A stretch of DNA of 64,000 nt from Escherichia coli (GTDB lineage: Bacteria; Pseudomonadota; Gammaproteobacteria; Enterobacterales; Enterobacteriaceae), in assembly GCF_041248615.1 (NCBI RefSeq), contig NZ_CP158426.1. One strand, written 5' to 3'. The first letter of the stretch is position 1. Each line of letters begins with the position of its first letter. Below, one piece after another: positions 20,556-22,299 of this stretch. The notes beneath the pieces were generated by a model that was not told the origin of the DNA, did not search any database, and worked only from the letters and a program-made list of their open reading frames with translations. Position numbers and translations under genes: made by a program.

Positions 20556-20653
20556 GATCACCCAACCACATAAGCTGTGGGATGCAATGCCGAAGCAACC
20601 GTCTCAGGAGGAGCTTCGAGATTGCATCGCCAAAGTTTATTCGGGAGGAATCC

Positions 20654-20926
20654 ATGTCCAGAAAAACAGAATTTAAAGGCACCGCAGCTTCTCGCCGTAG
20701 AGCTCGTCGCGCAAATCTGCAAAGTCAGGAGGCGATCAGCTCCGACAAGCTACACAGGCCAACCCCTTCACGAGTGGTCTTGCAATGCAAGCTCAAACCA
20801 GCAATGAGAGCAGAAGTGATAACTCTGACAACGTTGACCAGAAAATATGAAGGTTCAACTTGTCTTCCGAACGTAGCTCTTTACGCGGCAGGCTACCGGA
20901 AATCAAAACAACTGACGGCGAGATGA
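20654..20926 (+). CDS. N: N-type antiterminator (P22 gp24-like)
   Basis: ORF 20582-20926; start MSRKTEFKGTAASRRRARRANLQSQ at 20654 (GGAGG upstream); arginine-rich motif; C-terminal LYAAGYRKSKQLTAR resembles P22 gp24. Confidence 0.75.
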   Translation: MSRKTEFKGTAASRRRARRANLQSQEAISSDKLHRPTPSRVVLQCKLKPAMRAEVITLTTLTRKYEGSTCLPNVALYAAGYRKSKQLTAR

Positions 20927-20942
20927 TAAATTCATTTGCTAA

Positions 20943-21524
20943 TTACTTGTTTTTGCCATGCTTATCCTGAGCGATAAGTTCATCCATAAGGCTGTCTGCC
21001 TTCCCGGCAAACCTAATGTAGCACTCATGTCTATAGCTTTCAGGGATAACGAAACGGTCGGTATCAGGATATCCAACAGCAGGAGGCCTTCGAACGAGGA
21101 GTCCTTTTTTGAGCAATGAAATTGATTCATGAGCGCCCTTTTCCGTTTGTAGCTGGTTATTAGCGGCTACAGCGAATGCCAAATACGCTCTTTCTCCAAG
21201 AGTTAACGAATCAAACAAATCTTGCACATATTTTTCTTCTTTAGATTTGCGCTTCTGAGCAGCGAATACCTCAATTCTTTCAGTCACAGCGTGATAAGCG
21301 GAATTAACAACGCCGTTAAGCACATAGCTAACGCAAAACAACAGGATGTAATACATCCAGTAATGAGGAAGGATTTCTGGACTATGCAGGTTTATCCATT
21401 CTTTTACGCTTACCGGCATAACAATAATCAATATGATCAGGATGATTAGCATATGAATCAACTGTTTAAGTGTCATTCCTTGCAGGAAAAAATGCATTAG
21501 TTCCTGCCACCATGAGTTGTTCAT
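20943..21524 (-). CDS. sieB: superinfection exclusion protein SieB-like (membrane protein)
   Basis: 193-aa ORF MNNSWWQELMHFFLQGMTLKQLIHMLIILIILIIVMPV with TM segments, antisense immediately downstream of N. Confidence 0.6.
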   Translation of the reverse strand: MNNSWWQELMHFFLQGMTLKQLIHMLIILIILIIVMPVSVKEWINLHSPEILPHYWMYYILLFCVSYVLNGVVNSAYHAVTERIEVFAAQKRKSKEEKYVQDLFDSLTLGERAYLAFAVAANNQLQTEKGAHESISLLKKGLLVRRPPAVGYPDTDRFVIPESYRHECYIRFAGKADSLMDELIAQDKHGKNK

Positions 21525-21667
21525 CGGCGTTTCTCTTTTGCTCTCTGTAGGGGTGAATAGAGTTTATCCGATTTCTCGTTGTAGGGGTACACGAGAACCA
21601 CCGAGCCTGATGTGGTTAAAAGACAGGCACAATCTTTACTACCGCAATCCACTATTTAAGGTGATAT

Positions 21668-21754
21668 ATGGAAGAAGAATTTGAAGAGTTCGAAGAGCAT
21701 CCTCAAGATGTGATGGAACAATACCAGGACTATCCGTATGACTACGACTATTGA
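21668..21754 (+). CDS. 28-aa highly acidic mini-ORF overlapping the ral start
   Basis: MEEEFEEFEEHPQDVMEQYQDYPYDYDY; AAGG Shine-Dalgarno-like element upstream; below ORF-track cutoff. Confidence 0.25.
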   Translation: MEEEFEEFEEHPQDVMEQYQDYPYDYDY

Positions 21755-21938
21755 TACAAATCAATGGTGTGGACAATTCAAACGATGCAATGGATGCAAG
21801 CTGCAATCGGAATGCATGGTTAAGCCTGAAGAAATGTTTCCTGTAATGGAAGATGGGAAATATGTCGATAAATGGGCAATACGAACGACGGCAATGATTG
21901 CCAGAGAACTTGGTAAACAGAACAACAAAGCTGCCTGA
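21738..21938 (+). CDS. ral: restriction alleviation protein Ral
   Basis: 66-aa ORF MTTTIDTNQWCGQFKRCNGCKLQSEC..., lambda Ral. Confidence 0.8.
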   Translation: MTTTIDTNQWCGQFKRCNGCKLQSECMVKPEEMFPVMEDGKYVDKWAIRTTAMIARELGKQNNKAA

Positions 21939-22164
21939 TAGTGGCCTTTATTTTTGGCATAAATAACAGAATAAACACTGCACTGTGTATTCATTCCAAC
22001 GAGTGAATACACGGAGCAATGTCGCTCGTAACTAAACAGGAGCCGACTTGTTCTGATTGTTGGAAATCTTCTTTGCCCTCCAGTGTGAGGGCTTTTTTAT
22101 ATGCATACCAATAACGCTTCACTCGAGGCGTTTTCGTTATGCAATCAAATATAAGGAGTTACCC

Positions 22165-22299
22165 ATGATGCACTTTCAGCTCGCGGGTAGCGGCGTCATG
22201 TCCGCTTTCTACCCGCACGAATCTGAATTATCACGCAGAGTTAAACAATTAATCAGAGCAGCAAAGAAACAACTGGAGGCGTTATGCGCAATGAAATAG
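22165..22299 (+). CDS. CIII-like small protein (candidate FtsH inhibitor)
   Basis: 44-aa ORF MMHFQLAGSGVMSAFYPHESELSRRVKQL with AAGGAG 6 nt upstream; loosely resembles lambda CIII. Confidence 0.4.
   Translation: MMHFQLAGSGVMSAFYPHESELSRRVKQLIRAAKKQLEALCAMK

What the first reader, a model, noticed from the sequence alone, without database searches (positions are those of the whole stretch)
21668..21754. Extremely acidic 28-codon mini-ORF overlapping the ral start
MEEEFEEFEEHPQDVMEQYQDYPYDYDY has a plausible Shine-Dalgarno element and overlaps the first codons of ral in another frame. Such acidic mini-proteins can act as DNA mimics or regulators; ral itself modulates restriction-modification, so an associated acidic peptide is worth a look.
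Basis: seen in the sequence. Interest (0 to 1): 0.25.

Follow-up and report, generated by a model that had tools for sequence, protein, structure and literature searches.

The report
Conserved acidic mini-protein upstream of ral
The 28-codon acidic ORF is phage lambda's long-annotated but never characterised gene orf28; comparison across phages shows it is a real protein-coding gene under strong selection that sits next to two different anti-restriction genes, so it probably helps the phage escape bacterial restriction enzymes.

Summary
Window 21668-21754 (+) encodes MEEEFEEFEEHPQDVMEQYQDYPYDYDY, has a Shine-Dalgarno sequence, and overlaps the ral start by 17 nt in another frame. It is not new: it is lambda orf28 (lambdap47, NP_040623.1; phrog_16060, unknown function). 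RefSeq bacterial annotation omits it.

In loci found through Ral alone (Escherichia, Salmonella, Cronobacter, Providencia, Proteus, Erwinia, Pantoea) the frame stays open. Indels are multiples of three. Variable sites fall 3/4/15 on codon positions 1/2/3. pN/pS is 0.13 in this frame, and it is the only frame that is both open and constrained.

- The invariant core is E-F-x-x-H-P-x-D-x-M-x-Q-Y-Q-D-Y, so a specific sequence is conserved, not just charge.
- The gene also persists without ral, either alone or directly downstream of a Lar-family restriction-alleviation gene.
- The motif occurs as a C-terminal tail on larger proteins.
- Ral occasionally occurs without it.

Best reading: a real micro-protein that acts as an accessory to restriction alleviation. 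The mechanism is unproven. AlphaFold2 gave no Ral-peptide complex, and there are no homologues of known function. Interest is moderate, because a simple lambda experiment could test it.

The parts
21668..21754 (+). orf28 coding sequence (28 codons plus stop), the acidic mini-protein MEEEFEEFEEHPQDVMEQYQDYPYDYDY. It is the same as lambda orf28 / lambdap47 and belongs to phrog_16060.
   Evidence: sequence and ORF; lambda annotation; phrog_16060, E 7e-19, full length; exact sequence is AAA96576.1, seen on 182 contigs; purifying selection in this frame only.
21683..21733 (+). Conserved core of the peptide, codons 6-22 (EEFEEHPQDVMEQYQDY). Invariant or near-invariant positions are E7 F8 H11 P12 D14 M16 Q18 Y19 Q20 D21 Y22.
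   Evidence: Alignments A2 and A6. Sequences found through Ral alone keep the motif.
21658..21665 (+). Shine-Dalgarno sequence of orf28 (AAGGTGAT), spaced 2 nt from the ATG by sequence (6 nt after the GG core).
   Evidence: sequence; duplex energy -4.8 kcal/mol here; -6.9 to -11.6 for most leaders in relatives, -3.2 for P22.
21644..21667 (+). Conserved leader and mosaic junction (GCAATCCACTATTTAAGGTGATAT). In phages that lack sieB, homology begins here, so orf28 and ral travel together with this leader.
   Evidence: phage 21, SfI, Sf101 and CUS-3 matches start at query position 85 = window 21644; at least six different upstream contexts joined about 20-25 nt before the ATG; the same leader precedes other genes in Citrobacter and Kluyvera.
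21738..21754 (+). 17-nt overlap between the orf28 3' end and the ral 5' end. The ral ATG lies inside the P-Y-D codons of orf28.
   Evidence: The arrangement is conserved in distant relatives.
21725..21729 (+). Weak Shine-Dalgarno-like CAGGA for ral, lying inside orf28 codons Q20-D21, 8 nt before the ral ATG.
   Evidence: sequence; -4.0 kcal/mol, spacing 7-8 nt. That it acts in ral translation is inference.
21738..21938 (+). ral, the restriction-alleviation protein (66 aa, PF11058). It is the downstream partner gene.
   Evidence: (Pfam E 1.7e-48).
21930..21955 (+). Terminator-like hairpin plus T-run starting in the last ral codons. In ral-less relatives a similar hairpin follows directly after the orf28 stop codon.
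   Evidence: scan; downstream sequences of L159, L165, L175, L153.
20943..21524 (-). sieB (superinfection exclusion B), transcribed divergently. This is context, not part of the unit.
   Evidence: (PF14163).
20582..20926 (+). N-type antiterminator gene of the leftward early operon (context). RefSeq starts it at window 20654.
   Evidence: (PF25694, E 1e-32).

Best explanation
The ORF is lambda gene orf28, a genuine translated micro-protein gene of the N-dependent leftward early operon.

Shown here:
- The peptide sequence itself is under strong purifying selection.
- Its conserved core is E-F-x-x-H-P-x-D-x-M-x-Q-Y-Q-D-Y.
- The gene physically overlaps a restriction-alleviation gene in nearly all contexts. 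It overlaps the start of ral in most phages, or the stop of a Lar-family gene in others.
- The motif is portable. It exists alone, or as the C-terminal tail of larger small proteins.

Inferred:
- The peptide is made together with Ral or Lar through translational coupling.
- It acts in the same counter-defence step, namely escape from type IA restriction-modification enzymes such as EcoKI.
- It does so as a short, acidic, sequence-specific ligand that binds a basic surface of the host enzyme complex, or of a factor controlling it. It thereby assists Ral or Lar, or adds to their effect.
- It is not an obligate subunit of Ral.

My probabilities: real, selected coding gene about 0.9; role in restriction alleviation or anti-defence about 0.45; the specific mode 'acidic ligand of the type I enzyme' about 0.25.
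For: **Coding.** Loci retrieved through Ral only are unbiased with respect to the mini-ORF.
- They keep an open frame of 22-28 codons, and the length differences are multiples of three.
- In the 18 codons upstream of the ral ATG, variable sites are 3/4/15 at codon positions 1/2/3.
- Providencia versus Pantoea shows 9 synonymous and 1 nonsynonymous difference.
- Summed pN/pS is 0.126 in this frame. The other frames give 4.5, 1.3, 1.7 and 2.9. The remaining antisense frame gives 0.23 but has 2-5 stop codons in every homologue.
- Every lineage has a Shine-Dalgarno sequence.
- There is no conserved RNA structure that could explain the conservation.

**Independence from ral.**
- The ORF is intact in all 118 lambda-type contexts, including 12 where ral is deleted internally or carries a nonsense codon.
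- Natural ral-less versions end exactly after the orf28 stop codon and run into a terminator hairpin (L153, L173, L175).

**Link to restriction alleviation.** Among 170 distinct contexts:
- 145 have Ral downstream.
- 9 have a Lar-family gene directly upstream (PF14354 above threshold on three tested examples; phrog_599 'Lar-like restriction alleviation protein').
- None has both.
- A second, RalR-like Lar gene precedes the 56-aa Klebsiella version.

**Portability.** The motif forms the C-terminal tail of Cys-rich 56-69-aa proteins in Klebsiella and Raoultella phages, and of an 81-aa Brenneria phage protein.

**Published experiment consistent with a contribution.** A 'ral' expression construct was amplified from orf28 codon 16 onward, so it lacked intact orf28. 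It gave 'little to no effect' against EcoKI (PMC9410887). Older work reports strong alleviation by induced ral (PMC3874165).
Against: - There is no direct evidence of translation or of any phenotype. CRISPRi knock-down of orf28 had no effect, but it was done on a host without type I restriction (PMC10695390).
- Ral exists without the mini-ORF. In Citrobacter a different 66-aa ORF sits in its place, and in Kluyvera ral starts directly at the leader. Ral is therefore not strictly dependent on it.
- Only one close clade of Lar genes, plus the Klebsiella RalR-like one, carries it. Distant Lar genes and Rac prophage RalR do not.
- The position just downstream of N is a general hot spot for accessory genes, so adjacency could be coincidental.
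- AlphaFold2 on an orf28-linker-Ral fusion gave peptide pLDDT of 44-53, the same as a reversed-peptide control.
- There is no similarity to any protein of known function or structure.
- The weak result with the truncated construct in PMC9410887 could equally reflect poor ral translation.
Confidence: 0.42

Rival explanations
1. The mini-protein is a real gene but is unrelated to restriction. It would target some other host function, and it sits next to ral or lar only because the region just downstream of N collects small accessory genes.
For: - Standalone versions occur with no Ral or Lar nearby (L153, L173, L175/L226).
- Ral occurs without it.
- Most Lar genes lack it.
- Neighbouring positions hold diverse unrelated small genes, such as Ead/Ea22-like and Kil.
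- AlphaFold2 shows no predicted contact with Ral.
Against: - 154 of 170 distinct contexts have an intact Ral or Lar gene physically overlapping the mini-ORF. The two are mutually exclusive, as expected for alternative partners.
- 12 of the 16 remaining contexts are recent ral pseudogenes.
- Two different Lar subtypes acquired the motif independently.
Confidence: 0.3
2. The peptide binds Ral or Lar itself, for example as a chaperone, stabiliser or neutraliser made in equal amounts by translational coupling. It would have no target of its own.
For: - The genes overlap, which is typical of proteins made in fixed ratio.
- In the Klebsiella type, a Cys-rich putative zinc knuckle and the acidic tail are fused in one chain. 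This resembles a Lar-then-tail gene order.
- RalR/Lar of Rac prophage is annotated as a DNase toxin, which an acidic partner might restrain.
Against: - The peptide persists where ral is dead or absent, and where the Lar gene is a pseudogene (phage XY3).
- Ral and Lar are near neutral in charge (counted from the sequences), so they do not obviously need a -12 partner.
- One peptide core serves Ral proteins that differ by up to about 50% in sequence, as well as Lar-family proteins, which show no significant similarity to Ral.
- The AlphaFold2 fusion model is no better than its reversed control.
Confidence: 0.15
3. The ORF is only a leader whose translation delivers ribosomes to the weak ral start. 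The peptide product itself would be irrelevant.
For: - The ral ATG and its weak CAGGA Shine-Dalgarno sequence lie inside the ORF.
- The orf28 leader is a stronger ribosome-binding site in most relatives.
- Where the ORF is missing, ral takes over the strong leader directly (Kluyvera) or is stop-start coupled to another ORF (Citrobacter).
- A construct lacking the orf28 start performed poorly.
Against: - A pure coupling device does not need a conserved amino-acid sequence. Here synonymous sites are saturated while pN/pS is 0.13.
- The ORF is kept without any downstream ral, downstream of lar, and as a tail on other proteins.
- Coupling can still be a second, compatible role.
Confidence: 0.08
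4. It is not a gene at all. It would be either a chance ORF in A+G-rich sequence, or a region conserved for a non-coding reason such as the sieB promoter, an RNA structure, or an antisense ORF.
For: - Short ORFs are abundant here.
- Two antisense frames are also free of stop codons because of the GAA/GAG-rich composition.
- RefSeq pipelines do not call it.
Against: - Substitutions show third-position periodicity, and purifying selection is seen only in this frame among the open frames.
- Indels are in-frame.
- Consensus RNA folding is weak: -6.7 kcal/mol, with covariation term -0.44.
- The upstream region, which would hold the sieB promoter, is replaced by unrelated sequence in many phages while the ORF stays.
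Confidence: 0.03

Closest known systems
Lambda orf28 (lambdap47, NP_040623.1 / AAA96576.1), PHROG family phrog_16060
   Same: The peptide is identical. The position (between sieB/N and ral) and the 17-nt overlap with ral are the same. It matches the PHROG profile over its full length.
   Different: Nothing differs except one synonymous base. The family has no assigned function. It is absent from Pfam and NCBIfam, and is not called in RefSeq bacterial genomes.
DNA-mimic anti-restriction proteins Ocr (T7 gene 0.3) and ArdA
   Same: It is very acidic, phage- or mobile-element-encoded, expressed early, and associated with escape from type I restriction. What Ocr and ArdA do is taken from PMC9410887 and PMC3874165.
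   Different: It has 28 residues against more than 100 in folded dimers. There is no sequence or profile similarity and no confident fold. Its conserved residues include H, P, M, Q and Y, so a specific motif is conserved rather than a phosphate-like charge array.
T4 Stp, a 26-residue peptide that inhibits the type IC enzyme EcoprrI (from my own knowledge; not checked with tools)
   Same: It is a phage-encoded peptide under 30 residues in size, proposed to act directly on a type I restriction-modification enzyme.
   Different: Stp is not acidic. Sequence similarity to orf28 was not tested here. Stp has experimental support and orf28 has none.
Acidic C-terminal tails of single-strand DNA-binding proteins (E. 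coli SSB ...DFDDDIPF, T7 gp2.5; from my own knowledge)
   Same: Both are short acidic, aromatic, unstructured segments. The motif can work as a portable tail on different proteins, and here it does occur as a C-terminal tail.
   Different: In SSB tails the extreme C-terminal residue is essential. Here the C-terminus varies (Y, N, K, E, S, D) and the conserved part is internal. No SSB-related protein was found by the exhaustive profile search.
Translationally coupled leader or upstream ORFs in phage operons
   Same: It overlaps the start of the downstream gene and contains that gene's ribosome-binding site.
   Different: The peptide sequence is itself under selection, and the ORF survives without the downstream gene.

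Membership tests
Lambda orf28 / phrog_16060 | Sequence matches the family profile over its full length | tested here: met
   phrog_16060, E 7.1e-19, residues 1-28 on profile positions 1-28 of 28.
Lambda orf28 / phrog_16060 | Identity with the lambda reference protein | tested here: met
   The same 28-residue peptide in NC_001416. The exact-sequence look-up returns AAA96576.1 and Q38269_LAMBD.
Lambda orf28 / phrog_16060 | Position in the leftward early operon, overlapping the ral start | tested here: met
   Gene order is N, sieB (opposite strand), orf28, ral, ea10-like, cIII, kil, gam, bet, exo. The 17-nt overlap is as in lambda.
DNA-mimic anti-restriction proteins (Ocr, ArdA) | Sequence or profile similarity to the Ocr or ArdA families | tested here: not met
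   No Pfam family at E up to 1. No PDB sequence match at E up to 10. An exhaustive profile search of 1.84 billion proteins returns only orf28-type peptides, plus two long multi-stretch proteins that were not inspected.
DNA-mimic anti-restriction proteins (Ocr, ArdA) | A folded, elongated protein or dimer whose carboxylates imitate the phosphates of a stretch of B-DNA | tested here: inconclusive
   It has only 28 residues. AlphaFold2 gives no secondary structure and pLDDT of 44-53 for the peptide part. A single peptide cannot span the footprint known for Ocr or ArdA (inference).
DNA-mimic anti-restriction proteins (Ocr, ArdA) | High density of negative charge | tested here: met
   12 Asp/Glu in 28 residues, with no Lys or Arg.
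DNA-mimic anti-restriction proteins (Ocr, ArdA) | Binds and inhibits type I restriction-modification enzymes | not testable with these tools
   This needs biochemistry or phage plating assays.
Ral (PF11058) | Match to the Ral profile | tested here: not met
   The mini-protein has no Pfam hit. The downstream 66-aa protein is the Ral family member. The UniRef name 'Ral' for the 28-aa peptide is a misnomer.
Pure coupling leader ORF | Overlaps or abuts the start of the regulated gene | tested here: met
   17-nt overlap, with the ral Shine-Dalgarno-like CAGGA inside the ORF.
Pure coupling leader ORF | The peptide sequence is free to vary, and only its translation matters | tested here: not met
   pN/pS of 0.126 with saturated synonymous sites, and an invariant core motif.
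Pure coupling leader ORF | Occurs only together with the regulated downstream gene | tested here: not met
   Standalone versions and Lar-linked versions lack ral.
T4 Stp-like anti-restriction peptides | Sequence similarity to Stp | not tested
The resemblance is in size and proposed role only.

The most novel reading that the evidence does not exclude
The orf28 motif would be the missing co-factor of Ral- and Lar-type restriction alleviation. It would be a portable 17-residue acidic motif that docks on the type IA methyltransferase/restriction complex, for instance on the HsdM N-terminal domain, where Ral sensitivity maps according to PMC12707154.

Together with the small Cys-rich Ral or Lar protein, it would switch the enzyme from restriction to de novo methylation.

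This would explain three things:
- why the motif is coupled to two restriction-alleviation families that show no significant sequence similarity;
- why it can be fused to a Cys-rich domain in Klebsiella phages;
- why Ral expressed without intact orf28 works poorly.
Probability: 0.22. Interest if true: 0.7.

Novelty: already known. Interest (0 to 1): 0.42.

Why it matters
How Ral converts EcoKI-type enzymes into de novo methylases has been unresolved since the 1980s, and Ral has always been treated as acting alone. Three findings here bear on that:
- The ORF overlapping its start is one of the most conserved coding sequences in the module.
- It is also attached to the Lar family, which has the same phenotype.
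- It survives when ral decays.

Together these give a concrete, cheap hypothesis to test in lambda: make an orf28 point mutant, and express ral with and without orf28.

There are also practical points:
- The gene is present in 884 of 5426 complete E. coli genomes but is invisible in RefSeq annotation.
- 'ral' constructs used as tools may be incomplete.
- It is an example of a functional micro-protein below the usual gene-calling thresholds.

Tried and rejected
- **AlphaFold2 of orf28-(GGGGS)4-Ral with a 30-row paired alignment.** The peptide had pLDDT 44-53 and no structure, identical to a reversed-peptide control. This is uninformative. No multimer tool or contact output was available.
- **Conserved RNA structure or sequestration of the ral start.** The single-sequence fold has z = -1.4. 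The consensus of nine diverse sequences is -6.7 kcal/mol with negligible covariation. Rejected as an explanation of the conservation.
- **Antisense ORF (21639-21806, minus strand, 55 aa).** It is open only because of base composition. The antisense frames have pN/pS of 1.7-2.9, or contain stop codons.
- **Word-index protein search with the peptide alignment.** I replaced it with DNA pattern scans, a search with the 56-aa variant, and an exhaustive profile search.
- **Scan of species-representative genomes.** It gave only 5 hits. Four are lambdoid orf28 sequences, three of them in records whose taxonomic label is doubtful, and one is a chance match.
- **orf28-Ral fusion proteins P0002 and P0004 (89 aa).** Each rests on a single short contig, so I treat them as a frameshift or assembly error, not as biology.
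- **Relaxed constraint on orf28 once ral is dead.** The counts are 45 synonymous to 15 nonsynonymous with ral intact, against 9 to 5 with ral disrupted. That is too few to tell.
- **Rac prophage.** RalR is followed by rcbA, not by an acidic ORF.
- **Homology between Ral and Lar.** BLASTP E = 0.16 and hhalign probability 3%. This is not supported, although CxGC...PE...WxxR line up.
- **Alignment A8.** It contained two rows that I had completed by guess. I discarded it and redid it as A9 with database sequences.
- **Ribosome-profiling paper on lambda (PNAS 2013).** It could not be retrieved.
- **Pattern-scan loci.** The loci found by the pattern scans were not used for selection statistics, because the search pattern itself forces the motif.

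Full report
**1. What is there**

Window 21668-21754 (+) is an ATG-to-TGA ORF of 28 codons encoding MEEEFEEFEEHPQDVMEQYQDYPYDYDY.
- It has 12 acidic residues, 7 aromatic residues, and no Lys or Arg.
- AAGGTGAT at 21658-21665 is a credible Shine-Dalgarno sequence (-4.8 kcal/mol against the 16S 3' end).
- ral (66 aa, PF11058) starts at 21738, so the two ORFs overlap by 17 nt in different frames.

The surrounding genes form a lambdoid leftward early operon on the + strand. The order is a LexA-family (CI-type) repressor gene, N (PF25694), sieB on the opposite strand (PF14163), then ral, an ea10-like gene, cIII, kil, gam, bet and exo.

**2. It is an annotated gene**

The region is 99-100% identical to phage lambda and its relatives. 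In the lambda reference genome the ORF is annotated as orf28 (lambdap47, NP_040623.1, 34271-34357 complement), product 'hypothetical protein'.
- The peptide is identical to lambda's.
- It matches PHROG family phrog_16060, function unknown, over its full length.
- It has no Pfam, NCBIfam, PADLOC or PDB match.

The literature I could search mentions it only in strain lists and in a CRISPRi table. There it scored non-essential, on a host without type I restriction (PMC2327257, PMC10695390). No reviewed account of Ral mentions it (PMC12707154, PMC3874165).

RefSeq annotation of a 100%-identical E. coli chromosome lists sieB and Ral but no CDS for it. The DNA is present in 884 of 5426 complete E. 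coli genomes.

**3. Is it a real gene?**

ORF length alone says nothing: 53 ORFs of at least 20 codons overlap the 2.5 kb around it.

To avoid circularity I used only loci found through Ral protein or by DNA similarity of the whole region:
- lambda-type sequences (80 viral contigs);
- P22, ST64T, SE16 and ST415;
- more distant Ral homologues (61-70% identical to the window's Ral across their full length) from Providencia, Proteus, Erwinia and Pantoea, plus Cronobacter.

All of these carry an upstream acidic ORF in the same arrangement:
- MEDDIEEFDEHPDDDMSQYQDYPYEYDY (Providencia)
- V/MEDDIEEFDEHPDDDMSQYQDYPYEHDY (Proteus)
- MEEFDQHPDDDMSQYQDYRYEY (Erwinia)
- MDEEEFDEHPADDMSQYQDYPYEFDY (Pantoea)

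The supporting measurements are:
- Length differences are multiples of three.
- In the 18 codons that lie entirely upstream of the ral ATG, variable sites fall 3/4/15 on codon positions 1/2/3.
- Pairwise counts are strongly synonymous, for example 9 synonymous to 1 nonsynonymous for Providencia versus Pantoea, with only about 7 synonymous sites available.
- Summed over 21 lineage pairs, pN/pS is 0.126 in the orf28 frame.
- The other sense frames give 4.5 and 1.3, and two antisense frames give 1.7 and 2.9.
- The third antisense frame gives 0.23, but it has 2-5 stop codons in every homologue.

The mini-protein is about as conserved as Ral itself, and more so among the Providencia, Proteus, Erwinia and Pantoea lineages. 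No conserved RNA structure explains this. The sequence upstream of the leader is replaced by unrelated DNA in many phages, with the homology junction about 20-25 nt before the ATG. That rules out the sieB promoter as the source of constraint.

I conclude with about 0.9 confidence that this is a protein-coding gene whose amino-acid sequence is selected.

**4. What is conserved**

The invariant or near-invariant positions are E7 F8 H11 P12 D14 M16 Q18 Y19 Q20 D21 Y22. The N-terminal acidic run varies in length. The extreme C-terminus varies (Y, N, K, E, S or D as last residue). Part of that C-terminus is also constrained by the overlapping ral codons.

So the conserved entity is a specific 17-residue motif, not merely negative charge. 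This argues for recognition by a defined partner rather than generic polyanion behaviour.

**5. Contexts beyond ral**

Degenerate DNA pattern scans of viral contigs were used for context only, not for selection statistics. Together with the other loci they gave 170 distinct contexts.
- 145 have an intact Ral gene downstream. These include very divergent Ral proteins, about 50% identical (L129, L148).
- 9 have no ral. Instead a Lar-family restriction-alleviation gene lies directly upstream (PF14354 above the gathering score on three tested examples; phrog_599). Its stop codon overlaps the probable GTG start of the mini-ORF, behind a strong GGAGG site.
- None has both.
- Of the 16 with neither, 12 are lambda-type prophages in which ral carries an internal deletion or a nonsense codon while orf28 is intact.
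- Three types (L153, L173, L175/L226) are clean ral-less versions. There the sequence after the orf28 stop codon runs straight into a terminator-like hairpin.

In Klebsiella and Raoultella phages the motif is the C-terminal half of a 56-69-aa protein. Its N-terminal half is Cys-rich (CxxC...HxC). It lies directly after a RalR-like Lar gene, which is itself a pseudogene in phage XY3. In Brenneria phage BREN6 the motif ends an 81-aa protein.

An exhaustive profile search of 1.84 billion representative proteins returned only 30 hits. The 27 short ones I inspected are all of these kinds or are gene-call or assembly artefacts of them. Two long proteins with 6-10 matched stretches were not inspected. 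The family is therefore narrow (phages of Enterobacterales) and has no characterised relatives.

The converse also holds:
- Ral occurs without the mini-ORF in Citrobacter, where another 66-aa ORF sits between the same leader and ral.
- Ral occurs without it in Kluyvera, where ral starts directly at the leader.
- Distant Lar genes and Rac prophage RalR lack it.

**6. How it most likely works**

*Shown:*
- The gene is real and selected.
- It almost always overlaps a restriction-alleviation gene of one of two families, Ral or Lar. I could not show these to be homologous (BLASTP E = 0.16; hhalign probability 3%).
- It survives when that partner decays.
- Its motif is portable.

*Inferred:*
- It is co-translated with Ral or Lar.
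- It acts in the same counter-defence step against type IA restriction-modification enzymes.
- It does so as a sequence-specific acidic ligand of the host enzyme complex or of a factor controlling it.
- It is neither an obligate Ral subunit nor a mere coupling device.

One published experiment fits this reading. A 'ral' helper plasmid was amplified with a primer beginning at orf28 codon 16, so it lacked the first 15 codons and the orf28 ribosome-binding site. It gave 'little to no effect' against EcoKI (PMC9410887). A review of earlier work reports 800-fold rescue within a minute of ral induction (PMC3874165). The weak result could equally be poor ral translation, so it is a lead and not proof.

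Against the model:
- There is no phenotype and no direct translation evidence.
- Ral exists alone in some lineages.
- The region downstream of N is an accessory-gene hot spot.
- An AlphaFold2 fusion test gave nothing above its reversed-peptide control.

My confidence in an anti-restriction role is about 0.45, and in the specific ligand mode about 0.25.

**7. Comparison with known systems**

- Membership in lambda orf28 / phrog_16060 is met on every feature tested.
- It is not a member of the Ocr or ArdA DNA-mimic families. There is no sequence similarity, the size is incompatible, and there is no predicted fold. It shares only acidity and the biological setting.
- In size and proposed role it resembles T4 Stp (from my own knowledge).
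- As a portable acidic, aromatic tail it resembles SSB-type C-terminal tails. Unlike those, its extreme C-terminus is not conserved.
- It fails two defining features of a pure leader ORF.

**8. Verdict**

The finding is real but not new as an object. It is lambda orf28, known and annotated for decades and ignored.

What the analysis adds:
- clear evidence that it is a functional micro-protein;
- a defined motif;
- a context pattern (Ral downstream, Lar upstream, standalone, or fused as a tail) that ties it to restriction alleviation.

Together these make an old open question, how Ral works, testable with simple lambda genetics. Interest is moderate, about 0.4.

Noticed in passing
Related loci L116, L132, L139, L145, L152, L209, L212 (deletion allele); L125/L126, L158, L177, L188 (nonsense alleles): ral is frequently a pseudogene in E. 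coli prophages. One recurrent internal deletion (WCGQ fused out of frame to the C-terminal part) and four or five independent nonsense mutations were seen. The overlapping orf28 is intact in all 118 lambda-type contexts examined.
   Followed up: partly
Window 21644-21667; L096 and L099 upstream of ral; L106 and L203 downstream of ral: A recurrent leader, CCACTTATTTGAGGTGAGAT (CCACTATTTAAGGTGATAT in the window), precedes orf28 in many mosaic backgrounds. It also precedes a different 66-aa ORF in Citrobacter and ral itself in Kluyvera, and it recurs after ral in some phages. It looks like a module-boundary linker that doubles as a ribosome-binding site.
   Followed up: partly
Alignments A9 (Ral) and A7 (Lar): The profile comparison of Ral and Lar is not significant (hhalign probability 3%). 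Even so, it lines up CxGC, PE and W-x-x-R of both families. Both are small Cys4 proteins with the same phenotype, so remote homology or convergence is worth a structural check.
   Followed up: partly
Literature: PMC9410887, supplementary primer 4576: The published 'ral' anti-restriction helper construct starts at orf28 codon 16 (ATGGAACAATACCAGGACTATC). It therefore lacks intact orf28 and its ribosome-binding site. Ral then had little to no effect against EcoKI.
   Followed up: yes
L108, L271 (Klebsiella phages); proteins P0103-P0135, P0155, P0161: There is a 56-69-aa family with a Cys-rich N-terminal half (CxxC...HxC, a possible zinc knuckle) fused to the orf28 motif. It is placed after a RalR-like Lar gene, and that Lar gene is frameshifted and truncated in phage vB_KpnP_XY3.
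   Followed up: partly
Window 21639-21806, minus strand: A 55-codon antisense ORF covers orf28. Two antisense frames lack stop codons in all homologues because of the GAA/GAG-rich sense strand, but they show no purifying selection.
   Followed up: yes
L222, L223 ('Segatella copri' MAG), L226 ('Chryseobacterium sp. 18061'): Genome records with these labels carry lambdoid, Enterobacterales-type orf28 regions, with or without ral. Mis-binning, contamination or mislabelling seems likely.
   Followed up: no
Database entry for the 28-aa peptide: UniRef entry Q38269_LAMBD names the 28-residue orf28 peptide 'Ral(Restriction alleviation66)'. That name belongs to the neighbouring gene.
   Followed up: no
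Window 22121-22170: RefSeq starts the ea10-like (DUF2528) gene at an ATG with no Shine-Dalgarno sequence (window 22121). A better site, AAGGAG followed by ATG, lies about 45 nt downstream at about 22166. The annotated start may be too long.
   Followed up: no
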